From Squalus acanthias (taxonomy: Eukaryota): 64,000 nt of DNA. The notes under the pieces were generated by a model. The model had not been told where the DNA came from. It saw only the letters and a program-made list of their open reading frames with translations, and did not search any database. Both the position numbers and the translations under genes were made by a program. The stretch is taken from positions 148,678,001 to 148,742,000 of the forward strand of contig CM059431.1 of assembly GCA_030390025.1 (NCBI GenBank). Reading direction: 5' to 3'. Of this stretch, positions 25,266 through 57,122 are shown piece by piece. The stretch's first letter is position 1; every line of letters starts with the position of its first letter.

Positions 25266-26321
25266 ATCTAATGCACGGCATGGTTACTGACACAGAGTCA
25301 CAGGAACAAATCCTGGCAGATCACACCCACATCTTTAAATGTCTGAAATATTGGCGAATCATTCAGTTCCAGTCAGTGAGTTCTTTCCCACCATCTCCAG
25401 CTCTGCATTAGTGGCACTGCTTCTGAAGGTTAGAAAAGGATTACTAGGATAATTTACATTCTCAAAAAACGTTCACTCAGACATATTTCAATGCATTTAT
25501 TTCCAATCTTTGGTTTGAATTTACAATTGGATCCCATGCACACATGTCACAGTTCAGTGGATCTCTCAGTGAGACCCAGAGTGATTCTATATCGCCTCCT
25601 GCTGTACTGCAGGATAAACAATCCCAGATGATTGTAACTGAAGCACTGAAGATAAGAAAATCCTTTAATATTTTCTCGACTAATATTCTCTGCACAAGTT
25701 GGAAAACAACAGGCGAAAAAGTACAAGGATAAATCTCTTCCATTTGAGTTCAGATACTTTACAAAACCATTCGACGGCTCGTTGCCTGTTGAATAAGTCG
25801 CGTGATTATGATGCGAATAAATGCATTTAGTGGGATATTACCTGATCAATTTTAACTATTTATTTTAATTCAGAGTCCATTCTTTGCAATGTTATTTGGA
25901 AAATCTTCCTTTCAATGAGCCACAAATTGAGTATTTCAACAAAACTTTAGAAAGCTCAATCTTCAAATCACTTCTTACATCCCAGTTATCTTTATAACTG
26001 CAGGGCACTTGTATTTATTTTATCAATATTTTCCTATTACAAGCGCAAATTTTAAATTCAGTTGGCTGTAATTAATGCACGCCAAGTTTACAGTTTCTGT
26101 ACTTCGCCGTTGCATTCATTTTCAGTCCTCAATCTAATGGATATCTAACCAGAAGCAGGAATACACGCAGTATTTCCCCCTCTCTAACATAAAGGGCACT
26201 GAACCAAATTGCTCCGCTCCAAATGCTGACTGATCCCGGGACACGGAGGCTTCCTGAGAGCTTCTGGTCCTTTGTGTCCCTGGTACCTCGGGCGGTGCTT
26301 TTGTCTGCTGAGCTAAATGTA

Positions 26322-29300
26322 GATCATAGAATCATAGAATATAGGAGCAGGAGTAGGCCATTCGGCCACTCTAGCCTGCTCCAGCATTCAATGCGAATAT
26401 GGCTGATCATCCAAATTCAGTACCCTGTCCCTGCTTTCTCCCCATATCCCTTGATCCCTTTAGCCTTAAGAAATATATCTAACTCCTTCTTGAATCTATT
26501 TAATGAATTGGCCTCTACTGCCTTCTGTGGCAGAGAATTCCACAGTTTTACCTCTCTCTGGGTGAAGAAATTCCTCCTCATTTCTGTCCTAAATGGCTTA
26601 CCCCTTAGCCTTAGAATGTGACACTTGGTTCTGGACTCCCCGACCATCGGGAACATCCTTCCTGCTTCTAGTTTGGCCTGTCCTGTCAGAATTTTATATG
26701 TTTCAATGAGATCCCTTCTCATTCTTCGAAACTCCAGCGAGTATAAGCCCAATCGACCCAATCTCTCTTCATACGTCATTCCTGCCATCCCAGGTATCAG
26801 CCTTGTGAATCTTCGCTTCACTCCTTCCATGGCAAGAACATCCTTCCTCAGAAAAGGCGACCAAAACTGCGCACACTACTCAAGGTGTGGTCCCACCAAG
26901 GCCCTGTACAACTGCAGCAAGACATCCTTGTTCATGTACTCAAACCCTCTCGCTATGAAGGCCAAAAAACATTGGCCTTCTTAAACGCCTGCTGCACCTG
27001 CATGCTTACCTTCAGCGACTGGTGCACAACGACACCCAGGTCTCGTTGCACCTCCCCTTCAACCAATCTATTGACATTTAGATAATAGTCTGCCTTTCTG
27101 TTTTAGACACCAAAGTGGATAACCTCGCATTTATCAACGTTATAATGCATCTGCCACGCTTCTGCCCAATCACCCAACCTTTCCAAATCATCCTGGAGTT
27201 TCTCGGCATCCTGCTCGCAGCACACACGCCCACCCAGTTTTGTGTCGTCAGCAAACATGGAGATATTACATCGAGTTCCCTTGTCTCGATCATTAATATA
27301 TATTGTGAATAGCTGTGGTCCAAGGACCGATCCCTGCGTTACCCCGCTCGTCACTGCCTGTCACTCGGATAAAGACCCGGTTATTCCAATTCTTTGCTTT
27401 CTGTCTGCCAAACAGTTCTCTATCCAAGGCAATACCTTGCCCACAATCCCATGTGCCTTAACTTTACACGCTAATCTCTTATGCGGGACTTTATCAAAAG
27501 CCTTTTGGAAGTCGAAATACACCACATCGACTGGTTTTTGCTTATCTATTTTTCCAGTTACATCCTCAAAAAACTCCAGTTGATTCGTCAAGCATGATTT
27601 ACCTTTTGTAAATCCATGTTGACTTTGACCGATCCTGTCACTGTTTTCCAAGTGCTCAGCTATTACATTTTTTATAATGGACTCAAGCGTCTTTCCCACT
27701 ACCGATGTCAGGCTTACCGGTCTGTAATTCCCCGTTTTCTCTCGACCACGCTTTTTGAATATTGCGGTAATATTAGCTACCCTCCAATCCATGAGTACTG
27801 CTCCAGATTCCATCGAATGTTGGAAGATGATCAGCAATGCATATACTATTTCTAGGGCCACTTCCTTAAGTACCCTAGGATGTAGATTATCAGGCCCTGG
27901 GGATTTATCGGCCTTCAATCCCTTCAATTTCCCTAACACCATTTCCCTACAAATATTGATTTATTTCAGTTCCTCCCTTTCATCAGACCCTCTGTTCCCC
28001 AATATCTCTGGGAGGTTATTTCAGTCCTCCAATGTGAAGACAGAATTAAAATATGTATTTAATTGGTCTGACATTTCTTCTTCCCCCATTATAGGTTCCC
28101 TGATTCTGACTGCAAGTACCTATGCTTGATTTCACTAATCTTTTTCTCTTCACATATCTATAAAAGCTTTTAAACTCAGTTTTTATGTTCCCTGAAAGCT
28201 TACTCTCATAATCTATTTTCCCCTTCTTAATTAATCCCTTTGTCCTCATTTGTTGTATCTTAAACTACTCCCAATCCTCAGGGTTACTGCTTTTTCTGGC
28301 AAATAATATGTCCTCTCCTTGGATCTTATGCTATGCCTAATTTCCCTTGTTAGCCACGGTTGAGTCACCCTTTTTTGTTTTAACCTCATGCCAAATTTGG
28401 ATGAACAAATTCTACAGTTCGTCCATGCGGTCTTTCAATGTTTGCCATTGCATATTAACCGTCAACACTTTGAGTGACATTACTCAATCAATCCTGCCCA
28501 ACTCGCACCTCATGACATCGTAGTTTCCTTTAGTTAAATTCAGGACCCTAGTCTATGAGTCAACTACTTCACTCTACATCCGAATGAAGAATTCTATCAT
28601 ATTATGATCGCTCCGACCCAGGAGGCCTCGCAGAACAAGATTGCTAATTAATCCTTTCTCATTGCATATTACCCAGCCTAAGATAGCCTGATCTCTGGTT
28701 GGTTCCTCGACATATTGGTCCAGGAAACCATCCCGTAAACACTTCAGGAATTCCTCCTCCATAGTATTGTTACTAATTTGGTTAGCCCAATCTGTATGTA
28801 TATTAAAGTCACCCATGATGACTGCTGTGCCCTTATTCCACGCTTCCCTAATTTCCGTTTTAATGCCATCCCCAACCTCCGCATTACTGTTTGGAGGTCT
28901 ATATATCACTCCCACAAACGTTTTCTGCCCCTTGTTAATTCTCAGTTCAACCCATACAGATTCCACATCATCAGAGCTAATATCCTTCCTTCCAATTGTG
29001 TTAATCCTCTCTTTAACAAGCAATGTTACCCCACCTCCCTTTCCTGTTTGCCTATCTTTCCTGAATGTTGAGTACCCCTGGATGTTGAGTTCACAGCCTT
29101 GGCCACCCTGGAGTCATGTTTCGGTAATCCGAATCAAATCATATTCGTGTACCTCTATTTGCGCAGCTAATTCATCCACCTTGTTCCGAATGCTCCTTGC
29201 ATTAAGACAAAAAGCCATCAGGCTTGTTTTTTTAACGCTCTTAGACCTATTAGAATTAGTATTTACTGTTGCCACTTTTGATTTAAATCGTTGCTTTCTC

Positions 29301-29730: not shown

Positions 29731-30015
29731 TTTAATCTCTCATTGATCAAACATCTGTTACTTTCCTGTTGTATTCAGCCCCGATTCATTGATCGATTCT
29801 TCAATGTATTTCCGATTATTCTTACAATAAACCTGTATTCAGCTTCACGGGTAATCCAATGAGATTATATAATTGAATGTCGCTAATGAGTTGCTGATTT
29901 CTCCCCGAATTCCTTCAAACTGCTGCTCCTGCTCCAAGCCTGATGTATAATTTCCCTCTTTATTTCCCCTCCTAGCCTGATGTATAATGTCACTGTTTAT
30001 TTCCCTTGCTCACAG

Positions 30016-30917
30016 TGAACTTAGTGACGATTATGATCCTGTCTCGGGGAAAGTGCGGTCTCTCCAAATGTGTCACTCGCTACCTGCTGGCCATGGCAGC
30101 GGCGGATCTACTGGTCGTTTTCCTCGACCTGATATTGAGGCACATTCCGATTGTTTATTTGGAACATTTTCAGTTCGTGCGATCCATCCCCGTGTGTAAT
30201 ATCCATGCCGTCCTGCTTTATGCAGCCACAGACTGTTCTGTCTGGTTCACCGTCACTTTCACCTTCGATCGATTTGTGGCCATTTGTCGCCAGAAGCTGA
30301 AAACGAAATATTGCACGGAGAAAACGGCGGCTGTGATTCTGGGAACAGTGACTGTGCTGAGCGGCTCAAAGAACATTTCCTGGTATTTTATGTTCGAAAC
30401 TTGGTATGGGCTTTGGAACATGCCCTGGTTTTGTGAGGTAACAATCGATGTTATGAAATCACGTGCCTGGGCAGCAATCGAGCTCCTTCATTATAGTTTC
30501 ACCCCGGCGGTCCCATTTGTTCTGATTCTGCTGTTCAATGCTCTCACAGTCAGACACATTTTAGTGGCCAGCAAAGCCCGCAGGAGACTCCGGGGTCCCT
30601 GCATTGGGGAGAGTCAGAGAGACCCAGAGATGGAGAGCCGCAGGAAATCCATCACTTTACTGCTTGTTATCTCGGGCAATTTCATCCTGTTATGGGCAGT
30701 GTTTATGGTGATTTATATATGGAGCCGGATAGGGTCTATCAGTCCTGTGTCTGTAAATGCTCCTCTTTATTTACAGGAATTGGGATTGATGCTGCAGATG
30801 CTGAGTTGCTGCACAAACACAGGGATTTATGCCGTGACCCAGACTAAGTTCAGAGAGCAGTTGAAGAATATGGGAAAATATCCCTTTACTCTGATTGTAA
30901 CATTCATTAAAGGATAA
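30016..30917 (+). CDS. GPR139/GPR142-like class A GPCR, coding exon 2 (TM1 to TM7)
   Basis: Acceptor TTGCTCACAG|TG; YLLAMAAADLL (TM2), FTFDRFVAIC (TM3), NFILLW (TM6), SCCTNTGIY (TM7); open to TAA at 30915-30917. Confidence 0.93.
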
Positions 30918-35265: not shown

Positions 35266-35700
35266 GACCTCCATGGTGAACTCCATGATGAAGCAGAAGA
35301 CCTCAAAATGGTTAGTTTTGGAATCAGTGAAAAACCGAGGTATGGCCTCTCAAAAGCTTTATTTCGGCGGTAGTAGAGAAAGATCCCTAAAGCCGGTTCC
35401 TTGGGAATACTGTGAGTCCCGTATGCGGGAGACCAGGAAGACTCCCTGAACCAGGTGGAATGGGACACACCCAGCGCCCTATATAATTGCAGTAAGACCA
35501 TTCTGTACCACATTCATCACAAATGTCACATAGGGGCTACACACGATTCCTCCATTAAGGTCCTGATTCTGGTTAACCTCATTGTTTGCAAACAATCTTT
35601 CTAATTGCCTCTTCATTAACTCGTCGTGTTCCTCCATACTTTCTATAGGTATTCTGCTAACTCCCGCTAACCTTGCCATGGCTCCTATTCATCGCCAATC
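35266..35700 (-). mobile_element. Possible internally deleted Gypsy-type LTR element remnant
   Basis: Minus strand: PBS-like TGGCGATGA, gag-like MARLAGV...LERLFANN, purine tract, then TGT.. segment with TATATA and AATAAA. Confidence 0.35.
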
Positions 35701-36573
35701 TGACAGCCCTGGCTTCCTTCTCGATTTAAACTGACTCTCCTTCTGCTCCTCGTCTTCCTCAGCCCTTGGTTCCTATTTTCTGTTCTTTACTAGCACATTA
35801 TTTACTAATTCTCCTTCCATTTTGCCTATTAATTGTGAATAACTCCCATCACATAATCTGGTTTACAGATTCAAGTTCAACGTAAACGCAACCAGTATAA
35901 TTTCAACACACACATCATTATATAATACATTTGCTGATTCAATTATTTCTAGTCCATCAACGTTTGGGTTATTTTGCTGGATCGGACAGGTAGAGATCTG
36001 TATGTGAGGTGGGATGTCTTTCTTTTGGTCTCACAAAGTTTTTAGTGTTACGTTGATCACCATCAGCGTTTGTACTTGGCAAAGCAATAGTTAATATTAC
36101 TTATCAACATAAGACATTTGTTACTTTAAAATAACTTGCTGAAGTTTTCTTGTAAGTTGTTATTGAAGTCTTTTACAATGTTCTCGAATTACTTTTTGTC
36201 CGAGTCTGATATTAAGGGGTAGAAATTAGGTCGCGCCCCATTTGGGGCGCAAATATCGTCCGCGCGCAAATATTAGCGCCTGGCGCTAATTATCGGCACT
36301 GACAGGAAACTTCACTTTTACCGCCCCGGGAGGTGAGTGGAGCGCTAAATTAGGCGCTGCACACCTCTCTTAAGGCGCAAAGGCCTAGGAGTGAGGCGCT
36401 ACCTCAGCGCACGAGCGCAGCGCAGCTGCTGCCAGTTAGCGAGGGAACACAGACACACTGGCGCCGGACACTTCTTAAAGCGGGGGGGGGGCACTTGCTC
36501 CCCAGCCACACCCTGCTCATTGCAGCCTTGAATCTCAGCCTGGAGAGACCTGTAATCCATTTTGCTGCCAAGC

Positions 36574-38659
36574 ATGGAGAGGGTGAGAGAACGCGCTCAT
36601 CGCTTCACCGAGCGGGCCTTGGATGCTCTGGTTGACGCAGTGGAGCGCAGACGATGCATGCTGTTCCCGGAGAGTGGCAGGAGGCCTTTGCCACGCGAGT
36701 TCAGAAGAGTGTGGAGGGAGGTGGCTCAGAGCGTCTCCTCCAGTAGCATGGTGCCCAGGACCCATGATCAGTGCCGCAAAAAGTTCAACGACCTCACTCG
36801 GGTCGTCAGGGTGAGTGGCTTTTTCTCAATACCTCTCCATCCCTCCATCTCAACCTCACTCTATGGCCAGAGGGTCTTAAAACCCCAATGCACAACACTC
36901 ATGCAACACCTATGGCCCTTTCATCAAACACACACACACATTCCACACTTTGCATACAGTAAGGGCTATTCACCTATGGGAGGCACATCAGGCAAGACCA
37001 TGGCTGCATATTGTAAGGGCTATTCACCTATGGGAGGCACATCAGGCAAGACCATGGCTGTATATTGACTCAGATGCTGTCCTTTTTCTTGCAGGCTAAG
37101 CTGGCTCATAATCGGAGACAGCAGCAACGGACGGGTGGAGTGCGGCTTCAGCTGCAACCCCTCAGCGATCTGGAGGAGCGCGTCCACAGGATTGTGGCAA
37201 GCCGGGTGATCGGTCCCGTCGCCACTGGGGACGCCGACCCCGTTGTGGACAGCAATGGTAAGGTCATCACTTTTTTGTCCTCTGTCCTTCCACTTGTCCC
37301 TCACAATACCAGACTTTGACACTTTCAATCCAACTTGCTAACTCCCTGCACTTATTCCTCCCTTACTGCCACCCTGTCCTCACGCTAAAGCCACTCTTGT
37401 ACCTCCCTGCTTTCAGATGGTGATTCACCAGCTGAGGAGATGGTCCCTGAAGCTGCCACTGGGAGTGATGCTGCAGCTGAGGAGGAAGAGGAAGCCGGAG
37501 CATCAGTGCCACCCTCTCCCGAGGAAGCCCATGGCCACACTGGGAACACGCCTTCCCCGGAGGGGAGCAGGGGGGAAGGGGCTGATGATGGTGAAGTTCC
37601 AGGACCCAGCGGGCTGCAGCAACACCATTGGGGGGGGAGGGAAGAACGGGGGAGCAGGGGGGAAGGGGCTGATGATGGTGAAGCTCCAGGACCCAGCGGG
37701 CTGCAGCAACGCCATTGGGGGGGGAGGGAAGAACGGGGGAGCAGGGGGGAAGGGGCTGATGATGGTGAAGCTCCAGGACCCAGCGGGCTGCAGCAACGCC
37801 ATTGGGGGGGGGGAGGGAAGAACGGGGGAGCAGGGGGGAAGGGGCTGATGATGGTGAAGCTCCAGGACCCAGCGGGCTGCAGCCACGCCATGGGGGGGGG
37901 AGGGAAGAACGGGAGCCTTCTCCCCAGAGGGAGAGTATGCCAGACACTCCTAATGCAATGGACGCAGAGGAGGAGCGGCTGATTGCAGAAATGAACAGCC
38001 AGGCGGTGGGCATGCACACTGAGCTCATGGGTGCAGTGGGAAGGGTGCCCGAATGCATTGAGGCACTGGCAAGGAGTGTGGAGCACTTCGCTGTAGCACA
38101 GGCGGATGCCACACTAAAGCTTAGTGCTGCAATTCAGTCACTGGCTGCCAGGAACCCATCTGAGACTGCTCTCATGCAGACTCAGATTGAGGCCACGCGA
38201 GCACTGACTGCTGCCATCCTCGATGGTTCGTGCACATGTCCCCGGGGCTGTCACCGTGCCGCAGCAGGCCAGCAATCTGTTCTCCGGCAAATTGCTCCGG
38301 ATGCTGAAGTGCTGCCCCGTGGGAGTGCCAGTGTGTCGGGCGAGCAGGGAGTTGCTGTCCTCTCTCACGATGACAGCATTCCTGCTGCCAACACTGTCAC
38401 TTCTCCACTGCACTTGCCACCGCCTGTAGGACAGACTGCTGCCGCCCATGCAGAGTTGGTGCAGTCTGCAGCCGGGCCCTCCAGGCCCAGAAGTGGTCGA
38501 GGCCGTCCTTCAGGGGCATCTGCAGTGTCAGGGTCTGACAAGCAGCAGCCTTCCACCAGCCTTGCTGCAGCCACTGAGGTCCCATTACGGAGGAGCAGTA
38601 GGGTTAGAAGGGGGGAAGTGCGCAAGGGAAGGAGATCACCCTCGAAGGGCAAAAAGTAG
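36574..38659 (+). CDS. Harbinger Myb/SANT-like DNA-binding protein; exons 36574-36810, 37095-37257, 37417-38659; one frameshift in a G-run near 37804-37813
   Basis: RFTERALDALVDAV..W.EVA..V..RT..QCRKKFNDL; KLAHNRR...TGG; GT-AG introns with matching phases 0 and 1. Confidence 0.85.
37563..37912 (+). repeat. 87-bp coding tandem repeat, 4 copies
   Basis: GSRGEGADDGEAPGPSGLQQRHWGGREER unit. Confidence 0.92.
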
Positions 38660-38953
38660 GAGGTGTGCCAAAATGCTGGTCATTTTTTTATTAAAGGCCG
38701 CGGTTCATGGCCCAACTTTTGTTTAGTGTTTTGGACATTATCTCCAGGTTGTGAGAACCAGTTATGTTATTGACTGTTTTTTTGTGTTTATTTCTATGAG
38801 TTTGTCATGAGGAATTGACACACACAGAGTTTGTAAAATAAATAAGTTTCTGTATTCAAAATATACATGGCTGGTGGTTGGAATTATTGGTGCCTTGGCC
38901 GGCTTAGGGGTTGCGTGCTGGGTTGATTCGTGTTTGTAGCAATGGCAGGGGCC

Positions 38954-40114
38954 CTAGAAGCGGCTTGTTATTAGTCGTTGACGGACGGCCCTTGCATTTT
39001 GACCATTGTGGGCCGCCCTCCTGCCTTGGTGCTGCTGCTGATCATCGTCCTCGGCCTGTTCCTCCTCTTCCTCCTCCTCCTCTTGTGGTGCTGCAAGGCC
39101 TGGTGGCATTGGCTGCGTCCTGAGGATTGCCATGTTGTGCAACATGCAGCACACCACTACGAATTTGGAAACTTGCTCAGGCGAGTACTGCAGGGCTCCT
39201 CCGGAATGGTCCAGACAGCGGAATCGTTGTTTGAGCACGCCGATTGTGCGCTCAATAATGTTCCTGGTTGCTTGTTGGCTTTCCTGGTACCGCAGCTCAG
39301 CAGGGGTGTTTGGCGCACGGAGCGGTGTCATCAGCCAGGTGCTCAATGCGTACCCCTTGTCCCCCAGAAGCCAACCAACTGGCTGATGCGGTGCCTCGAA
39401 AATTTCTGCCACAGTACTCTGGCGCAGGATGAAAGCATCGTGGCAGCTGCCCGGATAGTGGGCATTGACAGCGAGAATCACCTGTCTGTGGTCACAGACC
39501 AACTGCACATTCAAGGAATGGAACCCCTTTCTGTTCCGGAACTCCTCTGCATTCTCTCGCGGAGCACACAAAGCCACATGCGTGCAGTCAATGGCGCCCT
39601 GCACCATGGGGAAGCCCGCTACCCTCGCAAAGCCCATAGCACGGTCATGCTGCTTGTCTGGGGTCATAGGGAAGGAGATGAAGTCTCATCTCCTTGTGAA
39701 GAGGGCATTGGTGACCTGCCGGATGCAGCGATGCACCGCAAACTGGGAGATATTGGCGAGGTCCCCAACAGCAGCTTGGAATGAGCCAGTGGCGTAGAAG
39801 TTCAAAGCCACTGTGACCTTCACTGCCACCGACAGAGACGTCCTGGACCTCAGCTGAGGCTGCAGATCTGGCTGCAGCAGGTGGCAGAGCTCAGTGATCA
39901 CCTCCTTGCTGAATCGCAGCCTTCGCAAACACAGCTCCTCGGACATATGGATGTAGGAGAGCTGTTCACGATATACCCTGGGAGGGTAAGCTCTCCTGTA
40001 CATGCGCCTGATGGCCCTCCTCCGTCTGGCCATCATTGCCACTCTCTGTCTGCGTCTCACTATCCTCCGATTGAGCTGGAGCAGAACGACGCCCCCAATC
40101 ATTGCAGCCCCCAT
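38954..40114 (-). pseudogene. Harbinger DDE transposase (HARBI1-like) with a single in-frame TGA at 39688-39686
   Basis: ALNFYATGSFQ, GAIDCTH, NRKGFHSLNVQ, PGSCHDA, LLGDKGY, RNIIERTIG.LK.RFRCL; the two ORF pieces are in the same frame. Confidence 0.93.
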
Positions 40115-40631
40115 AATCTCTTTGCCAGAAAAGTAATGAGGTACAGCAACGAAAGTAGCAGCAAAGTTAGGATGAACTAGGCAAAACTACCTCACAAAGC
40201 GTTGAGTCAATGTAGAAGTCTCTCTCTCTCTCTCTCCGAATCTCTCTCTCTCTCTCAGAACGAGTGGTGCATAAATGTCGACCACAGAAAAAGACAGGAA
40301 GAGGCCCCCTTTAAATAGCGCCCACCCCCCAGCCCCACACCGATTGATAACGTTCCAGTCTTCCGGTCGTTGGAAGCGCCAGGCGGTAAGGCAGGGGGCG
40401 CCACTCAATTTCCGCTCCGGGGCGCCCCAAGGGCGTTGCACCACGGAATGACGTCACAATCTGCGCGCGCAGGTGGTCGCAGCGGTAAGTTTTAGCGCCG
40501 CCGCACAATCTCAAGTTAAGTTCTCGAGCGGCGCAAACAGCGCTGCGCCCGGGCGTTAGCGCCTTAACGCCCCATTAGCGCCCTCTTAAGGCGCTAACGG
40601 GAGGCGCAACCAACTGAATTTTTACCCCTTA

Positions 40632-41524
40632 GGGGTAAAAATTCAGTTGGTTGCGCCTCCCGTTAGCGCCTTAAGAGGGCGCTAATGGGGCGCAAAGCCG
40701 CTAACGCCCGGGCGCAGCGATGTTTGCGCCGCTCGAGAACTTAACTTGAGATTGTGCGGCGGCGCTAAAACTTACCGCTGCGACCACCTGCGCGCGCAGA
40801 TTGTGACGTCATTCCATGGTGCAACGCCCTTGGGGCTCCCCGTAGCGGAAATTGAGTGGCGCCCCCTGCCTTACCGCCTGGCGCTTCCAACGACCAGAAG
40901 ACTGGAACGCTATCAATCGCTGTGGGGCTGGGGGAGGCGCTATTTAAAGGGGGCCTCTTCCTGTCTTTTATTGTTGGTGGCATTTTTGAACTACGCATTC
41001 TGAGAGAGAGAGGGAGAGACTTCTGGAGAGATTCAACGTTGTGTGAAGGAGTTTTGGGTACTGAGCAGCACTTTGCAGGTTCATTTTGATTTGCCATTCC
41101 TTGTATCGATTTAGCAGAGACCGTGGGAGCTGCACTCTGAGCTCTTTGCCTGGTGCTCTCCATTGTTCTTTCCAGCACATTTGATGTGCAAGTCTCTCCA
41201 GGCCGAGATTCAAGGCAGCAATGAACAGGATGTGGATGGAAAGCAAGATTAACCATCCCCTTTAAGAACTGGCCCGTGCCATTGTGTGTGTGTTCCATTG
41301 CTGACTGACATTACATGAGCTTCGCCAGCGCTCCGAGTTAGCGCCTCACTGCTCGGCCTTTGCGCCTTAAGAGAGGTGTGCAGCGCCTGCTTTAGCGCTC
41401 CACTCACCTCCCGGGGCGGTAAAAGTGAAGTTTCCCGTCAGTGCCGATAATTAGCGCCAGGCGCTAATATTTGCGTCCGGACGATATTTGCGCCCCAAAT
41501 GGGGCGCGACCTAATTTCTACCCC
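40632..41524. mobile_element. Non-autonomous 893-bp derivative of the adjacent Harbinger, in inverted orientation
   Basis: 40632-41060 is the reverse complement of the right end and 41325-41524 of the left end of 36216-40628; no coding region. Confidence 0.92.
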
Positions 41525-41544
41525 TATGACTCTATGAATCTATG

Positions 41545-42655
41545 ACTAAGTGTGGAAGAACTAGTTGTGGAAGGATACCTGTGGTGTTAGAATGTCTGGG
41601 AGGACGTGTTGCGGAAGGACTTATTGTGGAAGGTAGGTGTGACAGGACTAAGTATGAGAAGACTCGGTGTGAAAGGACTAGTTGTGGTAGGACTAGTTGT
41701 GGGAGGACTAGGTGTGGAAGGTCTAGTCGTGGAAGGACTCGGTTTGGGAGGACTAGATGTGGGAGAACTAGGTGTGGGATGAGCAAGTTTTGGTGGATTG
41801 ATGTGGGAGGAGGAGTCGTGAGAGGAATAGTTGTGGGATGTCTAGGTTTGGGAGGACGCGTTATGGAAGGCCTACTTGTGGACGGCCTAGGTTTGCCAGA
41901 ACTTGTTGTGGGAGAGCTAGGTGTGTCAGTACTAGGTGTGGCAGGATTAGGCTTGTGAGGACTAGATGTGGGAGAACTAGGTGTGGGATGACCAAGTTTT
42001 GGTGGATTGATGTGGGAGGAGGAGTCGTGAGAGGAATAGTTGTGGGATGTCTAGGTGTGGGAGGACGCGTTATGGAAGGCCTACTTGTGGACGGCCTAGG
42101 TTTGCCAGAACTTGTTGTGGGAGAGCTAGGTGTGTCAGTGCTAGGTGTGGCAGGATTAGGCTTGTGAGGACTAGGTGTGGTAGGACTAGGTTTGGGAAGG
42201 CTAGATGTGGAAGGACTATATCGGTGAAATATCTCGAGGGTAAGATGCGGCAGCAATAAATATGGGAGGACTACGTGTAGGAGGACGGGTTATGGCAGGA
42301 CTAGGACGTTCCGTTAGCTGTGGGAGGACTAGGTGTCAGAGAGCAAAGTGGGAGGACATTGTGGGAGGACTAGCTGTGGGGAGTCTAGTTTTGGGACGCC
42401 TGGATGTGGAAGGACTAAGTTTGGGAGGACGAGGTGCTGCGGCTGGAGGTGTGCGAAGACTAGGTGTTGGATGACCCGGTGTGTGAGGACTCCGTGTGGA
42501 AGGACTAATTTTGCAATGACTAGGTGTGGGAGGACTAGATTAGAAGGACTATATTTGGGAGGACTAGGTGTTGGAGGACTTGGTGTGGGATGCCTCGGTG
42601 TGGAAAGATTATTGTGGAATGAATAGATGTGGGAGGACTAGATCTGGGAGGGCGA
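41545..42655. repeat. 15-bp-unit degenerate satellite
   Basis: AGGACTAGGTGTGGG units with a 209-bp near-exact internal duplication. Confidence 0.9.
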
Positions 42656-42930: not shown

Positions 42931-43849
42931 CATAGGATCATAGGGGAAAATATTCAGCAGCTTAGCGCCGGAAGATATCGCTCGAGCATTATCGCCGGGG
43001 AAATGGTTCACTGAAATGCCGTGAAATGATTAACTAAACAAGGGCTGGAAGCCTGGTAAATCAATAATCAGAGACCAAGTCCAAAAGGAGAAGGGCTCCC
43101 AACGGTACCACAACGAAATCGGTGCGACACAGGGATCCGACTGCCGCTCCTCGGAAGCGAGCGCAGTCGGCTTGTGTAAAGTGCAAGCAGTGAGGGCTGC
43201 CCTCCAGCGGTGGAAACCGCCCATCAATGGCAGAACTGTTTTTGCTCCGGAGTTCCGTGTCCCATTTCCTCCGGGGATCGCTGGTTGGAATGCTCGGTCG
43301 CTGGCACATGCTATGTCGGTGCACTGGCCCAAGAGCGAGCAAGGGAAAGTGTGTAAAGGGCGCTTCAACTGACAGCCGGGCTTTTACTGCGCCGGACGTC
43401 GGTGATTACTTCGGAAGGCAACATCGGATCTGCTACGAGTCAACGGTGGGTGAAAGAGATTGCGGAGCTAAACAGGGCAGTACCGTGCCTGTGTGGCTGC
43501 GCCTTGGTCGGACGAAATGACAGCAATGAGGCGGCAGGCCGCTTTGCAACTGATAGATTCCGCGAGCTGGCGACCGACCTCCTTGATTGCACCATTTCTG
43601 CAAGCCAAAGCGAACCGGCCTCCAGCCGTACCAGAAATAGATCAGTCCCACACATTGTAGCTTTGCGGGTGTCCCCGAAACCTATGGAGGCGGACCCGGC
43701 TGGAAAAGGTGAAATCATGAAGCAAGATGTCGCGAATAATGCCCAGTGTGTAAGGTCGAAGTGGGACATTTTTAACGGAAAAGCATTGAAATGGTTAAAT
43801 CAAAAAAGACTGGAAGGGAGGGAAATCAGTAAGCAGAGACCAAGTCGGA

Positions 43850-44605: not shown

Positions 44606-44787
44606 AATTGGAAATTTTGGAGGATGTAAATGGTAGAATAGATAAGGGAGGACCAGTGGATGTGGTGTATTTGGACTTTCCGAAGGCTTTCGATGAGGTC
44701 CCGCATAAGAGATTAGCGTGCAATGTTAAAGCACATGGGATTGGGGGTAAGGTACTGATTTGGATAGATAACAGGTTGGCAGACAGG
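44606..44787 (+). mobile_element. Short CR1 RT fragment
   Basis: VDVVYLDF.KAFD.VPHKRL. Confidence 0.85.
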
Positions 44788-45397
44788 GCGAAGCCAGAGG
44801 AAAGCCCGTAGCGGTCCTGACGTGCAAATTGTTCATCCGACCTGTTTGTAGGGGCGAAAGGCTAGTCGAACCATCTGGTGGCTGGTTCCTTCTGAAGTAT
44901 CTGGTGCACGTCCATATGCAGTTTTATCTGGAAAACCAATGATTAGAGGTTTTGGGGCAGAAACAATCTCAACCTATTCTCAAACTTTAAATGGCTAATA
45001 AGCACGACTCGCTGCTTGGAGCCCGGCGTGGAATGCGATTGCCTAGTGGACCACTTATGCTAAGTAGAACTGTCACTGCGGGATGAACCGAACGCTCGAT
45101 AAGACGCCCAATCCCGACACCCATCAGCCCCCCAAAATGAGTTGGTTGATGGAGGACGGTGGCCTTGGAAGTCGGAATCCGCTAAGGAGTGTGTAACACC
45201 TCACCTGCCGAATTAACTAGCTCTGAAAATGAATGGCGCTACAGCGTTGGGCCCACACCCGGTCGTAGCAGGCAATGGAGAGCACGCGGGGGATAGGCCG
45301 TGATGAGTAGCAGGTGCAGATCTTGTTCGTCGCAGCAAATATTCAAAACGAGAACTTTGAAGGCCGAATTGGAGAAGAGTTCCACCTGAACAGCAGT
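44784..45397 (+). pseudogene. Decayed eukaryotic 28S rRNA fragment
   Basis: Conserved LSU tracts GGGCGAAGCCAGAGGAAA, CGTAGCGGTCCTGACGTGCAAAT, ATCTCAACCTATTCTCAAACTTTAAATGG and GGAAGTCGGAATCCGCTAAGGAGTGTGTAACA, with many substitutions and deletions. Confidence 0.93.
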
Positions 45398-45495
45398 GCT
45401 TTATCGGCACAGTCATATCAAGCACTCACAGCCAGGTTTACCAAGTGTAAGATACAGAGTAAAGCACCCTCTGCACTGCCGATCAAACACTCCCT

Positions 45496-47720: not shown

Positions 47721-47915
47721 TTTAAAGTGCGGGACGCAGTGGTTGCTGGGTAGGTGATTAATTTTTACCTGTATATAAGTTGGGCGGTTCCTAAACCCGA
47801 GACACTACACTTGTAGTGTCCCCCACCTTTCCTCCTCCTCTAACCTAAAGGAGGTGAGTGACTATCAGGTAAGCTCTTTTTTGTTCTAGTTTAATCTGCA
47901 AGTTAGCTGGAGGGG

Positions 47916-48842
47916 ATGGCAGGGGAGGCAGTGAAATGTTCCTCCTGCAGAATGTTTGAGCTGAGGGACGCCGTAGGTGTCCCTGCTGATTACACCTGTG
48001 GGAAGTGCACCCATCTCCAGCTCCTCGAAAACCGTGTTAGGGAACTGGAGCTGGAGCTGGATGAACTTCGGATCATTCGGGAGGCAGAGGAGGTCATTGA
48101 TAGAAGCTTCAGCGATGTAATTACTCCAAAGCATGAAGATAGATGTGTGACGGTGAGAGGGGCTAGGAGGAAGCAGTCAGTGCAGGGATCCTCTGTGGTC
48201 GTTCCCCTCAGTAACAGGTATACCGCTTTGAATACTGTTGACGGGGACGACTTACCAGTGGTAAGCCACGGTGACCGGATCTCCGGCGCTGGGTCCGTCC
48301 CTGTGGCTCAGAAGGGAAGGGGGGAGAGCAGGAGAGCAATAGTTATTGGGGACTCAATAGTCAGAGGGACAGATAGGAGGTTCTGTGGCAGCAAAAGAGA
48401 CTCACGGATGGTATGTTGCCTCCCGGGTTCCAGGGTCCGTGACGTCTCGGACCGTGTTTTCAGAATCCTCAAAGGGGAAGGGGAACAATCACAAGTCGTG
48501 GTACACATCGGTACCAACGACATAGGTAGGAGAAGGGACGGGGATTTAAAACAGGAATTTAGGGAGCTAGGTTGGAAGCTGAGAGCCAGTACAAACCATG
48601 TTGTAATTTCTGGTTTGTTGCCGCAGCCACGTGCTAGCGAGTTGAGGAACAGGGAGAGAGTCCAGATAAACACGTGGCTGCAGGGATGGTGTAGGCGGGA
48701 GGGTTTCAGTTATGTGGAGAATTGGAGCACATTCTGGGGAAGGTGGGACCTGTACAAACAGGACGGTTTGCACCTGAACCAGAGGGGCACCAATATTCTG
48801 GGAGGGAAATTTGCTACGGCTCTTCGGGGGGGTTTAAACTAA
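47916..48842 (+). CDS. CR1 ORF1p (Cys motif, coiled coil, SGNH esterase-like domain)
   Basis: CSSC..CGKC, heptad leucines, IGDSIV, HIGTND, DGLHLN. Confidence 0.93.
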   Translation: MAGEAVKCSSCRMFELRDAVGVPADYTCGKCTHLQLLENRVRELELELDELRIIREAEEVIDRSFSDVITPKHEDRCVTVRGARRKQSVQGSSVVVPLSNRYTALNTVDGDDLPVVSHGDRISGAGSVPVAQKGRGESRRAIVIGDSIVRGTDRRFCGSKRDSRMVCCLPGSRVRDVSDRVFRILKGEGEQSQVVVHIGTNDIGRRRDGDLKQEFRELGWKLRASTNHVVISGLLPQPRASELRNRERVQINTWLQGWCRREGFSYVENWSTFWGRWDLYKQDGLHLNQRGTNILGGKFATALRGGLN

Positions 48843-51739
48843 TTTGTCAGGGGGATGGGAAAAAGGGCTGTAGTCCACGAGCCAGTGGTGAGTGTAGGGA
48901 GGTACTGAGGAGGGTATCAAGGTCGCAGGAATGTACCGGCAGACAGGAAGATGGCTTGAAGTGTGTCTACTTCAATGCAAGGAGCATCCGGAATAAGGTG
49001 GGAGAACTTGGAGCGTGGATTGGTACTTGGGAATACGATGTGGTGGCCATTACGGAGACATGGTTAGAACAGGGACAGGAATGGTTGTTGGAAGTTCTGG
49101 GGTATAGATGTTTCAGTAAGAGTAGGGAAGTTGGTAAGAAAGGTGGAGGAGTAGCATTGTTAATCAAGGATAGTTTAACAGCGGCAGAAAGGCAGTTCGA
49201 GGGGGATCTGCCGTCTGAGGTAATATGGGCTGAAGTTAGAAATAGGAAAGGAGCGGTCACGTTGTTAGGAGTTTTCTACAGGCCCCCAAATAGTAATAAA
49301 GATGTGGAGGAAGAAATTGCAAAGCAGATTATGAATAGGTGTGGAGGTCACAGAGTAGTTGTCATGGGTGACTTCAACTTTCCAAATATTGATTGGAACC
49401 TTTATAGGTCAAACAGTTCGGATGGGATAGTTTTTGCACAGTGTGTGCAGGAGGGTTTCCTGACACAATATGTGGATAGGCCGACAAGAGGTGGGGCCAC
49501 GTTGGATTTGGTACTGGGTAATGAACCGGGCCAAGTGTTTGATTTGTATGTGGGAGAGCACTTTGGAGATAGTAACCACAATTCGGTAACTTTCACTATT
49601 GCAATGGAGAGGGATAGGGCCATACGGCAGGGCAGGGTTCATAATTGGGGGAGGGGTAATTATGATGCGATGAGGCAAGAATTAGGGAGTATAAGATGGG
49701 AACAGAAACTATCAGGGAAAGGCACAAACGAAAAGTGGAGCTTTTTCATGGAGCAATTACTGCGTGTCCTTGATAGGTATGTCCCTGTCAGGCAGGGAGG
49801 AGATGGCCGAGTGAGAGAACCATGGTTCACAAAAGAGGTTGAATGTCTAGTCAAGAGGAAAAAGGAAGCGTATGTAAGGATGAGAAAACAAGGTTCAGTT
49901 GGGTCGATTGAGGGGTACAAGGTAGCAAGGAATGAGCTAAAAAAAGAGCTTAAGAGAGCTAGGAGGGGGCATGAGAAGTCCTTGGCGGGTCGGATCAAGA
50001 AAAACCCCAAGGCTTTTTACTCTTATGTGATAAATAAAAGAATGACCCGGGTGAGGGTAGGGCCGGTCAAGGACAGTAGTGGGAACTTGTGCATGGAGTC
50101 AGAAGAGATAGGAGAGGTGATGAATGAATACTTTTCGTCAGTGTTCACCGAGGAGAGGGGCCATGTTCTTGAGGATGAGAGTGTGATAAAGGTGGATAGG
50201 CTGGAGGTGGTAGATGTTCTGAGGGAAGATGTTTTAGCAATTTTGAAGAACCTGAGGGTCGATAAGTCCCCTGGGCCAGATGGGATATATCCTAGGATTC
50301 TTTGGGAGGCAAGGGAGGAGATTGCAGAGCCTCTGGCTTTGATCTTTGGGTCCTCACTGTCCACGGGGATGGTGCCAGAGGACTGGAGAGTGGCGAATGT
50401 TGTTCCTCTCTTCAAGAAAGGAAATTGGAATGACCCTGGTAATTATAGGCCGGTTAGTCTTACTTCGGTGGTTGGTAAGATAATGGAAAAGGTACTGAGG
50501 GATAGGATTTATGACCATTTGGAAAGGGGCAACTTAATCAGGGATAGTCAACACGGATTCGTGAAGGGTAAGTCTTGCCTAACAAATTTGATTGAATTAT
50601 TTGAGGAGGTAACTAAGTGTGTAGATGAAGGTAGAGCAGTTGATGTCGTATACATGGATTTTAGTAAGGCGTTTGATAAGGTTCCCCATGGTCGTCTCAT
50701 GAAGAAAGTAAGGAGTTGTGGGATAGAGGGAAATTTGGCCGATTGGATAAGTAACTGGCTATCTCATAGAAGGCAGAGGGTGGTGGTGGATGGAACATTT
50801 TCGGACTGGAGACCAGTTACCAGCGGTGTGCCACAGGGGTCGGTGCTGGGTCCTCTGCTGTTTGTGATTTTTATCAATGACTTGGAGGAGGGGACTGAAG
50901 GGTGGATTAGTAAATTTGCTGATGACACCAAGATTGGTGGAGTAGTGGATGAGGTGGAGGGCAGTTGTAGGCTGCAAAGAGACATTGATAGGATGCAGAG
51001 CTGGGCCGAAAAATGGCAGATGGAATTTAACCCTGATAAGTGCGAGGTGATTCATTTTGGTAGGTCAAATTTGAATAAGGATTACAGGGTCAACGGCAGG
51101 GTTCTGAGGAACGTGGAGGAGCAGAGGGATCTGGGGGTTCATATCCACAGATCTCTGAAGGTTGCCACTCAAGTGGATAGAGCAGTAAAGAAGGCCTATG
51201 GTGTGTTGGCGTTTATTAACAGAGGGTTTGAGTTTAAGAACCGTGAGGTTATGCTGCAACTGTACAGGACCTTGGTGAGACCACATTTGGAATATTGTGT
51301 GCAGTTCTGGTCACCTCACTATAGGAAGGACGTGGAAGCATTGGAAAGAGTGCAAAGGAGATTTACCAGGATGCTGCCTGATTTGGGGGGGAGGTCTTAT
51401 GAGGAAAGATTGAGGGAGTTGGGGCTTTTCTCTTTAGAGCGGAGCAGGATGAGAGGCGACTTAATAGAGGTTTATAAGATGATGAGGGGGATAGATAGAG
51501 TGGATTTTCAGAGACTATTTCCTCGGGTAGAGGCAGCTGTTACAAGGGGGCATAACTATAAGGTGCATGGGGGGAGATATAGAAGGGATGTCCGAGGTAG
51601 ATTCTTTACTCAGAGAGTGGTTGTGATGTTGAATGGACTGCCTGCTGTGATAGTGGAGTCGGACACTTTAGGAACTTTCAAGCGGTTATTGGATAAGCAC
51701 ATGGAGCACACCAGAGTGATAGGGAGTGTGATAGCTTGA
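48833..51739 (+). CDS. CR1 ORF2p (APE endonuclease plus reverse transcriptase); start shown at the ORF1 overlap because no early ATG exists
   Basis: FNARS, AITETW, GDFN, SNHN, YMDFSKAFD, QGSVLGP, FADD; uninterrupted frame. Confidence 0.93.
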   Translation, partial: FKLICQGDGKKGCSPRASGECREVLRRVSRSQECTGRQEDGLKCVYFNARSIRNKVGELGAWIGTWEYDVVAITETWLEQGQEWLLEVLGYRCFSKSREVGKKGGGVALLIKDSLTAAERQFEGDLPSEVIWAEVRNRKGAVTLLGVFYRPPNSNKDVEEEIAKQIMNRCGGHRVVVMGDFNFPNIDWNLYRSNSSDGIVFAQCVQEGFLTQYVDRPTRGGATLDLVLGNEPGQVFDLYVGEHFGDSNHNSVTFTIAMERDRAIRQGRVHNWGRGNYDAMRQELGSIRWEQKLSGKGTNEKWSFFMEQLLRVLDRYVPVRQGGDGRVREPWFTKEVECLVKRKKEAYVRMRKQGSVGSIEGYKVARNELKKELKRARRGHEKSLAGRIKKNPKAFYSYVINKRMTRVRVGPVKDSSGNLCMESEEIGEVMNEYFSSVFTEERGHVLEDESVIKVDRLEVVDVLREDVLAILKNLRVDKSPGPDGIYPRILWEAREEIAEPLALIFGSSLSTGMVPEDWRVANVVPLFKKGNWNDPGNYRPVSLTSVVGKIMEKVLRDRIYDHLERGNLIRDSQHGFVKGKSCLTNLIELFEEVTKCVDEGRAVDVVYMDFSKAFDKVPHGRLMKKVRSCGIEGNLADWISNWLSHRRQRVVVDGTFSDWRPVTSGVPQGSVLGPLLFVIFINDLEEGTEGWISKFADDTKIGGVVDEVEGSCRLQRDIDRMQSWAEKWQMEFNPDKCEVIHFGRSNLNKDYRVNGRVLRNVEEQRDLGVHIHRSLKVATQVDRAVKKAYGVLAFINRGFEFKNREVMLQLYRTLVRPHLEYCVQFWSPHYRKDVEALERVQRRFTRMLPDLGGRSYEERLRELGLFSLERSRMRGDLIEVYKMMRGIDRVDFQRLFPRVEAAVTRGHNYKVHGGRYRRDVRGRFFTQRVVVMLNGLPAVIVESDTLGTFKRLLDKHMEHTRVIGSVIA

Positions 51740-54999: not shown

Positions 55000-55423
55000 G
55001 AAAGAAGACGCCTATTATGTTGCAAATAATAATAGTAAGCCTGAGGATTGGGAGAGTTTCAGAAACCAGCAACGGCTGACCCACAAATAGAAAAAATGGA
55101 AAAAATAGAATATGAGAGAAAACTAGCAAGAAATAGCAAAGCAGATTGTAAGAGTTTTTACAAGTATGTAAAAAGGTAAAGAGTAGCAAAAGTAAACGTT
55201 GGTCCCTTAGAGGCTGAGACAGGAGAAAATATTATGGGGAATATGAAATTGGCAGAAAAGTTAAACATATGTTTTGTATCTGCCTTCACAGCAGAAAACA
55301 CAAAAAGCATACCAAAAATGGTGGGGAACCAAGGTTCTAATGAGGGTGCGGAACTTAACGTAATTAATATAAAAATGAGAAGACACACAACACCAGGTTA
55401 TGGTCCAACAGATTTATTTATAA

Positions 55424-55461
55424 TTACAAGCTTTCGGAGCTGTTGCCCCTTCGTCAGGTAA
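55424..55461 (-). ncRNA. Minimal type I hammerhead ribozyme motif
   Basis: UUAC-CUGACGA-A-GGGGC(AACA)GCUCC-GAAA-GC-UU-GUAA. Confidence 0.75.
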
Positions 55462-57084: not shown

Positions 57085-57122
57085 TTACCTGACGAAGGGG
57101 AAACAGCTCCGAAAGCTTGTAA
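57085..57122 (+). ncRNA. Minimal type I hammerhead ribozyme motif
   Basis: UUAC-CUGACGA-A-GGGG(AAACAG)CUCC-GAAA-GC-UU-GUAA. Confidence 0.72.

What the first reader, a model, noticed from the sequence alone, without database searches (positions are those of the whole stretch)
36216..41524. Composite Harbinger: full element and inverted mini-element joined through one TTA, forming a large palindrome
Seen: ...AATTTTTACCCC-TTA-GGGGTAAAAATT... at 40617-40643 with about 340-430 bp of mirrored arms; the outer ends (36216-36410 and 41325-41524) are inverted copies of each other. The three flanking triplets differ (TAA, TTA, TAT), so no simple TSD closes either unit. Known: Harbingers duplicate TWA-type targets. 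Inference: targeting of the element's own end, possible mobilisation of the 5.3-kb unit by its outer ends, cruciform potential, and perhaps an adjacent rearrangement. The transposase promoter end is duplicated back to back.
Basis: partly seen in the sequence, partly recalled or inferred. Interest (0 to 1): 0.75.

Follow-up and report, generated by a model that had tools for sequence, protein, structure and literature searches.

The report
Two Harbinger transposons joined end-to-end
A broken full-length Harbinger jumping gene and a short, very abundant relative sit end-to-end as a DNA palindrome, most likely the one-off scar of a faulty transposition that removed the DNA between them, not a new mobile unit.

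Summary
The structure is in the sequence. A 4,413-bp two-gene Harbinger (E1; transposase with a premature stop, Myb gene frameshifted) and an inverted 893-bp non-autonomous relative (E2) meet right end to right end across TTA. It is not a fold-back: the arms differ at 10 of 304 positions and E2 matches its own high-copy family. The TWA premise fails for this family: 1 of 15 other flanks is TWA, while the flanks follow A-N-N-Y/R-N-N-T. TAT inside a CR1-type tail, as at E2's outer end, recurs at other loci, and the CR1 body is missing here. TTA is TAA read on the other strand. Best reading: two separate insertions, then E2's inner end was joined to E1's target triplet by alternative transposition, losing the DNA between (0.45). 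No exact 3-bp end-to-end junction appears among 27 of 30 joint rows shown, so self-targeting and a mobile composite are unsupported. No listed contig spans this junction, so independent confirmation is lacking. Inverted dimers and such deletions are known for P, Ac/Ds and mPing. Earlier scan notes cover Harbingers in this genome, but none describes this junction type.

The parts
36209..36215 (+). Left flank of E1: ATAT + triplet TAA; fits the A-N-N-Y half of the family's target motif
   Evidence: motif tally, arithmetic
36216..40628 (+). E1: 4,413-bp two-gene Harbinger (PHIS) element, both ends intact, both genes interrupted
36216..36227 (+). E1 left TIR (12 bp), followed by subterminal TTAGCGC / TAAGGCGC-type words shared with the right end (presumed Myb-protein sites; inference)
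36574..38659 (+). Myb/SANT-like gene, three predicted exons (36574-36810, 37095-37257, 37417-38659); four 87-bp tandem units in exon 3; +2 frameshift in the G run at 37804-37813
   Evidence: Pfam PF13873 E=1.1e-09; splice sites and frame; tandem units
38954..40114 (-). DDE transposase gene, 386 codons, in-frame TGA at 39688-39686; DCTH, GDKGY and IERT catalytic-motif residues present (motif assignment recalled)
   Evidence: PF13359 E=8.1e-38; best relatives are shark/ray 'putative nuclease HARBI1' proteins, 53-66% identical in the top 20
40310..40456 (-). Putative transposase promoter words in E1's right arm: TATA-like TATTTAAA (40317-40310) and CRE-like TGACGTCA (40449-40456)
   Evidence: function inferred, no RNA data
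40326..40934 (.). Palindrome: 304-nt arms, 97% complementary, perfect for 62 nt each side of the single central base 40630
40617..40628 (-). E1 right TIR
40629..40631 (+). Junction triplet TTA (TAA on the other strand); read as E1's right target triplet with its middle base flipped or mutated
40632..41524 (-). E2: 893-bp non-autonomous element of a very high-copy family; about 400 bp right arm (93% to E1), about 125 bp own middle, about 370 bp left arm (85% to E1) ending just past the Myb ATG
40632..40643 (+). E2 right TIR (inner end)
40804..40948 (+). Second copy of the putative promoter words (TGACGTCA 40804-40811, TATTTAAA 40941-40948), pointing into E2
41513..41524 (-). E2 left TIR (outer end)
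41525..41545 (+). Right flank: triplet TAT + GACT (fits R-N-N-T) inside a CR1-type 8-bp tail repeat whose element body is absent
   Evidence: compare complete 3' ends at 9440-9520 and 26310-26390; same flank at other loci; the label 'CR1 tail' is recalled

Best explanation
A one-off product of aberrant (alternative) transposition in a genome crowded with this Harbinger family. Step 1 (one half-site shown, rest inferred): E1 inserted at ATAT-TAA-RNNT and duplicated TAA. Step 2 (inferred, well supported): E2 inserted separately, in the opposite orientation, at the TAT of a CR1-type tail further along. Step 3 (inferred): transposase supplied in trans cut E2's inner (right) end while its outer end stayed in place, pairing it with an end from the sister chromatid or another copy. 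It joined that end to the TAA beside E1's right end, a half-good target. The DNA between, including the CR1 body and E1's old right flank, was deleted or inverted away. A variant is cutting at both inner ends followed by end-joining. Step 4 (inferred): the unpaired middle base of the new palindrome went from A to T, by a flip inside the 62-bp perfect arms, a point change or consensus polishing. The result has no function of its own. It is a fragile inverted dimer with two divergent promoter copies, one ahead of a transposase with a premature stop.
For: Both inner ends stop exactly at the TIR with a TSD-length spacer. Both outer flanks fit the family's motif: among 15 other half-sites, R at +1 in 14 and T at +4 in 13 (binomial P 5e-4 and 2e-6). 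TAT is a native triplet: TAT/ATA in 4 of 15 half-sites, and left ends followed by the same tail occur at other loci in X1 and X15, and in reverse orientation in X7. Complete tails in the window follow a GC-rich hairpin-like 3' end that the left flank lacks, and the 946-bp left flank has no match elsewhere in the window, so the two flanks do not read as one site. Both end types are abundant in four runs. Precedent: 9 of 16 rice rearrangements start exactly at mPing ends (PMC7584900 section 10); Ds ends joined to new targets give flanking deletions, and 11% of events were inversions by recombination between inverted Ds copies (PMC3239180).
Against: The model predicts TAA at the junction but TTA is seen, so an extra unshown step is needed. 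No empty or pre-deletion allele was seen. The right-flank tail is only 21 nt and could be a free microsatellite. The tally rests on 15 half-sites from cut tables (24 of 527 loose ends shown) and leans to flanks that resemble the window's own. The junction itself is not bridged by any listed contig. Ectopic recombination between copies gives the same end product and cannot be told apart here.
Confidence: 0.45

Rival explanations
1. Double insertion followed by ectopic recombination. E2a inserted into E1's right target triplet (an inverted dimer sharing a TSD), then recombined with a same-orientation E2b in a CR1 tail further on, deleting the DNA between. E2 is then a chimera.
For: Dimers sharing a TSD form readily in bursts: P-element head-to-tail in 55 of 85 strains and head-to-head in 8 of 85 (bioRxiv 10.1101/158386). 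Copies of this family are very numerous and over 90% alike. Mismatched TSDs after ectopic recombination are documented for Galileo (PMC2775673).
Against: Needs two rare events, and still needs TAA to become TTA. Rough chance expectation for an exact E1-E2 shared-triplet insertion is 0.004-0.17 per genome (uniform) or 0.04-1.6 (motif-weighted), on assumed copy numbers. No exact junction among the 27 joint rows shown.
Confidence: 0.2
2. Plain double insertion at one site with no loss of DNA. Both elements went into the same TAA, and two of the three triplet copies later changed by one base.
For: The outer flanks together spell a perfect target, ATAT-TAW-GACT. The triplets differ from TAA by one base each. 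The mechanism is known (Tourist multimers, PMC5172404).
Against: Needs two changes in nine bases beside elements only a few percent from their families. The T of TAT is exactly the base the tail repeat predicts, and TAT-GACT flanks recur at other loci. The left flank is not a CR1 3' end.
Confidence: 0.13
3. Mobile composite. The dimer formed elsewhere and moved as a 5.3-kb unit by its two outer left ends, with one TSD base changed afterwards.
For: The outer ends are intact and 48 of 50 identical at the tip. Left and right TIRs differ by 1 of 12 bases. The outer flanks fit one target motif. An mPing 'megatransposon' using distal termini is proposed in PMC7584900.
Against: TAA versus TAT; the tail argument above. 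In the low-coverage run X15, where only high-copy sequence assembled, both right-end contigs start at 40632 and the junction-bin depth is accounted for without a bridging contig (X15 carries another organism label and is contigs only). 0 junction matches in metagenome contigs (weak, since the family itself was not found there).
Confidence: 0.08
4. Recurrent self-end targeting. The family prefers the triplet next to its own termini, so this junction is one of many.
For: The terminal CCCC/GGGG supplies Y at -1 and R at +1, and the outer half-site is already a good one. Four other loci show two ends close together: spacers of 11, 34 and 42 nt, and one of unknown length seen in both X1 and X2.
Against: None of those four is shown to be an exact 3-nt junction. 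In the 11-nt case both elements sit in consecutive units of the tail repeat, so the shared hot spot explains it. Left-to-right 3-nt junctions would be listed as joints and are absent from the 27 of 30 rows shown. It does not explain the mismatched outer triplet.
Confidence: 0.08
5. Assembly artefact (fold-back or mis-join).
For: No listed contig bridges the junction. Palindromes are hard to assemble. The central base and the G-run frameshift could be consensus errors.
Against: The arms differ at 10 of 304 positions. Four of these (40693, 40694, 40698, 40720) are the variants that separate the two right-end contigs in run X15. Each arm continues into its own family's interior, and both stop at a TIR with a 3-nt spacer.
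Confidence: 0.06

Closest known systems
Head-to-head and head-to-tail P-element dimers sharing a TSD (McGurk and Barbash, bioRxiv 10.1101/158386; passages read)
   Same: Two family members joined end to end across a TSD-length spacer; the inverted form is rarer and cruciform-prone.
   Different: There the spacer is the site's own TSD on all sides. Here the three triplets differ and the flanks look non-contiguous, and the partners are an autonomous-type and a non-autonomous element of a vertebrate Harbinger family.
mPing-mediated deletions and megatransposon in rice (PMC7584900; passages and section 10 read)
   Same: Same superfamily; breakpoints exactly at element termini; linked copies; aberrant transposition during a burst.
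   Different: The text read describes single or rearranged mPings left at breakpoints, not an intact inverted dimer across one triplet. Figure 5 and the supplements were not seen and might show one.
Ac/Ds sister-chromatid and single-chromatid alternative transposition; P-element hybrid element insertion (PMC3239180 passages and section 14; PMC2775673 passages)
   Same: One end stays in its old flank, the other is joined to a new target, and the DNA between is deleted or inverted.
   Different: hAT and P elements with 8-bp TSDs. The new target being another copy's TSD is not described in the passages read.
Harbinger3_DR of zebrafish (target AAACAC-CWG-GTCTTT as quoted in PMC3016246, passage read) and the NuwaI group (PMC4482050, passages read)
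   Same: Two genes (DDE + Myb/SANT), about 4.4 kb, TIR starting GGG, 3-bp spacer, flanks that fit A-N-N-Y / R-N-N-T.
   Different: The central triplet here is degenerate and W-rich (ATA, TAT, TTG, TTT, AAG, TAA and others), neither CWG nor strict TWA.
Tourist MITE multimers (PMC5172404, passage read)
   Same: Adjacent or nested insertion of Harbinger-mobilised elements next to or into each other; more than 10% of 6,600 rice MITEs are in multimers.
   Different: Plant MITE-MITE pairs from independent insertions; no loss of flanking DNA is described in the passage.

Membership tests
PIF/Harbinger-type (PHIS) DNA transposon, E1 | DDE transposase of the DDE_Tnp_4 / HARBI1-like family | tested here: met
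   PF13359 E=8.1e-38; 270 relatives at E<=1e-30, nearly all of the 120 listed named 'putative nuclease HARBI1'; premature stop present
PIF/Harbinger-type (PHIS) DNA transposon, E1 | Second gene with a Myb/SANT domain | tested here: met
   PF13873 E=1.1e-09; frameshift in predicted exon 3
PIF/Harbinger-type (PHIS) DNA transposon, E1 | Short TIRs starting with G | tested here: met
   12-bp TIR, 11 of 12 identical between ends
PIF/Harbinger group in the strict sense (Han et al. 2015) | TWA target site duplication | tested here: not met
   E1's own triplets are TWA but not direct copies; 1 of 15 other half-sites is TWA. Both sides of single insertions were not seen, so TSD length is inferred.
NuwaI group (Han et al. 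2015) | CWG target site duplication | tested here: not met
   0 of 15 half-sites and 0 of 3 window triplets are CWG
NuwaI group (Han et al. 2015) | Transposase falls in the Nuwa clade | not tested
   No reference set of named PHIS transposases was fetched
Non-autonomous Harbinger / Tourist-like MITE, E2 | Both ends shared with an autonomous element, no coding capacity, high copy number | tested here: met
   Ends 93% and 85% to E1; the one long ORF scanned has no Pfam hit; covered end to end in 4 of 4 runs, including one with 184 contigs
Composite (macro)transposon moved by outer ends | One TSD duplicated around the whole unit | tested here: not met
   TAA versus TAT
Composite (macro)transposon moved by outer ends | Further copies of the unit with other flanks, or an empty site | tested here: inconclusive
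   No genome; no bridging contig listed, tables cut; negative but uninformative
Double-insertion dimer | Same triplet at the junction and at both outer ends | tested here: not met
   TAA / TTA / TAT
Alternative-transposition flanking deletion | Breakpoint exactly at a terminus, with the new target's triplet at the junction | tested here: inconclusive
   Exact at both termini; the triplet is the reverse complement of E1's TAA, not TAA itself
Alternative-transposition flanking deletion | Progenitor allele with both elements and the DNA between them | not testable with these tools
   Needs another haplotype or a related assembly

The most novel reading that the evidence does not exclude
This cartilaginous-fish Harbinger family, during a recent burst, repeatedly joins an end of one copy to the target triplet of another copy, because that triplet keeps three of the four preferred flanking bases. 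It thereby makes inverted dimers and flanking deletions genome-wide, and some dimers then move as composites by their like (left-left) ends. That would be natural evidence of alternative transposition by a vertebrate Harbinger and a built-in source of palindromic fragile sites.
Probability: 0.15. Interest if true: 0.62.

Novelty: new member of a known kind. Interest (0 to 1): 0.3.

Why it matters
As a single locus it is a tidy natural example of Harbinger ends being joined to each other with loss of flanking DNA, a process documented for mPing, Ac/Ds and P. I found no report of it for a vertebrate Harbinger in searches (open-access library only). A 304-bp, 97% palindrome with a one-base centre is the kind of structure that stalls forks and breaks (PMC7999016, passages), so it is probably young or polymorphic. 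It would matter more if a genome-wide count showed such junctions enriched, because abundant Harbingers would then be a direct source of deletions and fragile palindromes in these genomes. A side result: this family's targets are set by flanking bases rather than TWA, which makes CR1-type tails hot spots.

Tried and rejected
Whole-genome search: no genome is held, so junctions and composite copies could not be counted. Metagenome scan for exact end-to-end junctions: 0. TIR scans gave 3 metagenome loci and 1 viral locus, none with BLAST similarity to the element region, so these are chance matches and one search is uninformative. The left flank (35270-36215) could not be identified: no Pfam hit for the 5 short frames scanned from it, nor for one ORF at 43357, no match in the window, no look-alike note. 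Runs: 21 listed, 4 laid, contigs only, on 40580-41545 only. Absence of a bridging piece is no evidence of absence, and summed depth is not a copy number. RNA was not asked for, so the promoter claim is untested. Gene conversion between the arms was considered: the E1-type contig of X15 has two variants (40675, 40676) inside the perfect arm that the window's E1 lacks. I did not accept this as evidence, because X2 depths suggest more than one E1-like subfamily. A TAT-origin double insertion was rejected as needing three changes. E1's end attacking E2's triplet was rejected because it predicts TAT at the junction. Papers opened that did not help: PMC3439972, bioRxiv 10.64898/2026.05.26.728016 (its 'head-to-head' refers to gene order), PMC10288884, PMC12368964; passages only. 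No supplements were read; those of PMC7584900 list breakpoint sequences and may show a similar junction.
Full report
1. Observation. The window comes from a repeat-rich vertebrate-type region; the best transposase relatives are shark and ray proteins. E1 runs 36216-40628 (4,413 bp), TTA lies at 40629-40631, and E2 runs 40632-41524 (893 bp, inverted). The flanking triplets are TAA, TTA and TAT. The 12-bp TIR pattern matches 4 times in 64 kb, exactly at these ends; 0 of 100 shuffles reach 4. The central arms are 304 nt at 97%, perfect for 62 nt on each side of base 40630, with 10 mismatches in 304 offsets, and extend to 402 columns at 93% with gaps. The outer ends are 269 nt at 89%.

2. What E1 and E2 are. 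E1 carries a Myb/SANT gene on the + strand (PF13873, E=1.1e-09) and a DDE_Tnp_4 transposase on the - strand (E=8.1e-38). The transposase has an in-frame TGA at codon 143 where the three homologues aligned have an amino acid. The predicted spliced Myb gene shifts frame by +2 in a G run of the third 87-bp tandem unit; a homopolymer error is possible. E2 shares about 400 bp of right end and about 370 bp of left end with E1, with identity falling inward, and has a middle of about 125 bp found nowhere else in the window. Laying four runs on 40580-41545 showed E2 covered along its length in 4 of 4. That includes X15, which has only 184 contigs, of which 21 were laid; six of its eight listed pieces differ from E2 at 0-3 letters. 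X15 also holds a second right-end contig with 7 differences, four of which are the bases by which E1's arm differs from E2's. Loose ends at 40969 and 41335 match E1's arms as read by eye. So both types are abundant families and the palindrome is a meeting of two family members, not a local fold-back. Summed depth is about a million over E2 in X1 and X2 against about 650 in the flank bin; the tool warns that this is not a copy number, and I use it only as 'very high'.

3. Target sites. I tested it. From table 7 I used 7 of the 8 rows at a terminus, dropping the X1 row with agreement 0.47; 24 of 527 loose ends were shown. From table 5c I used 8 half-sites from 5 of the 12 rows shown, dropping rows that join interior positions or give no flank. 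Read outward, 14 of 15 have R at +1 and 13 of 15 have T at +4 (binomial P 5e-4 and 2e-6; 2e-3 and 2e-5 after removing the two rows selected by matching the window's flank, counts by eye). The triplets were ATA, AAG, TTG, TAT, TTT, TTT, CAA, TCT, CTT, ATA, TAT, AGA, AAA, TTG and TAA: one TWA in 15, four TAT/ATA. The display favours flanks that resemble the window's. The same flank pattern is in the Harbinger3_DR consensus quoted by PMC3016246 (passage). Both outer flanks of our unit fit the motif. The junction fits only at +1.

4. The right flank. The 21 nt after E2 are in phase with the 8-bp tail repeat that ends two LINE-like 3' ends in the window (9440-9520, 26310-26390; the name CR1 is recalled). 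Those tails follow a GC-rich hairpin-like stretch that E1's left flank lacks, and the left flank has no match elsewhere in the window. Left ends followed by the same tail occur at other loci: X15 (match to 41531, then different), X1 (joint at 41533), and X7 in reverse orientation. A second Harbinger-like end at 42943 also sits at a tail TAT. I infer that TAT is E2's original triplet and that the body that should lie on E2's inner side is gone. This is the main argument that the two flanks were not one site; it rests on a short repeat and is not proven.

5. Mechanism. TTA is TAA on the other strand, and the differing base is the single unpaired centre of the palindrome. A crossover or template switch within the 62-bp perfect arms, a point change, or short-read polishing would each convert one into the other without other trace (inference; inversions by recombination between inverted Ds copies made up 11% of rearrangements in PMC3239180, abstract passage). 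With that, E1 keeps its TSD on both sides, E2 keeps its outer one, and E2's inner end has been joined to E1's triplet. That is the signature of alternative transposition, in which one end moves to a new target while the other stays (PMC3239180; PMC2775673). For mPing, 9 of 16 rearrangements began exactly at element ends (PMC7584900). Under the staggered-cut model for mPing (5' TSD overhangs; PMC4561436, passages), joining two cut inner ends would give TAA or TAT, so that variant also needs the TAA-to-TTA step. I give this family of explanations 0.45, double insertion plus ectopic recombination 0.2, plain double insertion 0.13, mobile composite 0.08, recurrent self-end targeting 0.08 and artefact 0.06.

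6. Is it recurrent? One search shows four other loci with two ends close together: right-right with 34 nt, left-right with 11 nt and 42 nt, and one of unknown spacer seen in both X1 and X2. All have the low depth of a single locus. In the 11-nt case the two elements occupy consecutive units of the tail repeat. An exact right-right junction is collinear with my reference and cannot appear as a joint, but exact left-right or left-left junctions could, and none is among the 27 of 30 rows shown; X1 was read to about 55%. In X15, no contig runs over the stretch's ends, one fits two places, and the junction-bin depth is accounted for by two contigs starting at 40632 plus one ending at 40630 (two equations with two unknowns, so consistent rather than proven). 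X15 has a different organism label. With assumed copy numbers, chance gives 0.004-0.17 exact E1-E2 junctions per genome (uniform) or 0.04-1.6 (motif-weighted), so a single case is rare but needs no special targeting. None of the 32 listed pieces (of 45,843) bridges our junction, so it is not independently confirmed.

7. Consequences. The palindrome folds very stably in prediction (-136.5 kcal/mol for 40530-40730, -426 for both arms; no shuffle control was run). Long, similar arms with a short spacer are the risk class for breakage (PMC7999016, passages), and head-to-head P dimers are scarcer in nature than head-to-tail (8 versus 55 of 85 strains). TATA-like and CRE-like words are duplicated back to back, but one set faces a transposase with a premature stop and the other faces non-coding E2; expression was not tested. 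The outer left ends are intact (48 of 50 identical), so mobilisation in trans remains physically possible.

8. Comparison and verdict. E1 works like, and by gene content belongs to, the Harbinger branch of PHIS. It does not meet the strict TWA definition of the PIF/Harbinger group or the CWG definition of NuwaI (PMC4482050, passages), and its clade was not tested. The joined structure is a new member of a known kind: an inverted transposon dimer, probably with a flanking deletion. I found no paper on such a junction in a vertebrate Harbinger in searches; searches were for mechanism, target and palindrome background. The library lacks most subscription papers, and no supplements were read. Look-ups in the scan's own notes found several Harbinger notes for this genome but none on an end-to-end junction. 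Interest 0.3; the bolder reading (recurrent end-to-TSD joining with composite mobility) has probability about 0.15 and would merit about 0.6.

Noticed in passing
window 42931-42990: A different Harbinger-like end (GGGGAAAATATT..., with a TTAGCGCC word) sits at the TAT of another CR1-type tail; I found no matching far end or CR1 3' body in the window.
   Followed up: partly
window 53253-58519 (core 55480-57065): A larger inverted repeat: arms of 496 nt at 94% and 270 nt at 91% around a 59-nt spacer, with older inverted LINE-like segments outside.
   Followed up: no
window 35270-36215: E1's left flank is unidentified: no Pfam hit, no match in the window, no look-alike note. TATA-like and AATAAA words on the minus strand hint at a cut-off mobile element.
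   Followed up: partly
loose ends at 40651 (X1, X2): 60-70 contigs show a related subfamily whose right TIR starts GGGGAAAAATTCGG; one locus seen in both runs has a left end followed closely by such an end.
   Followed up: no
joint 41533 to 40632 (X1): Two family ends 11 nt apart in consecutive units of the 8-bp tail repeat: the tail acts as a periodic hot spot.
   Followed up: partly
window 29988-30917 +: A 309-aa intronless frame that looks like a seven-helix receptor (resemblance recalled, not scanned).
   Followed up: no
window 47907-51739 +: A LINE-like pair of long frames (311 aa and 1,014 aa, the second uninterrupted), suggesting a young CR1-type copy (not scanned).
   Followed up: no
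window about 44780-45400: Sequence that reads like a degraded large-subunit rRNA fragment joined to a LINE fragment (resemblance recalled, no Rfam search).
   Followed up: no
window 36951-37067 and 37562-37913: Inside E1: a 54-bp duplication in Myb intron 1 and four 87-bp units (97% alike) in exon 3, one with a longer G run that shifts the frame.
   Followed up: partly
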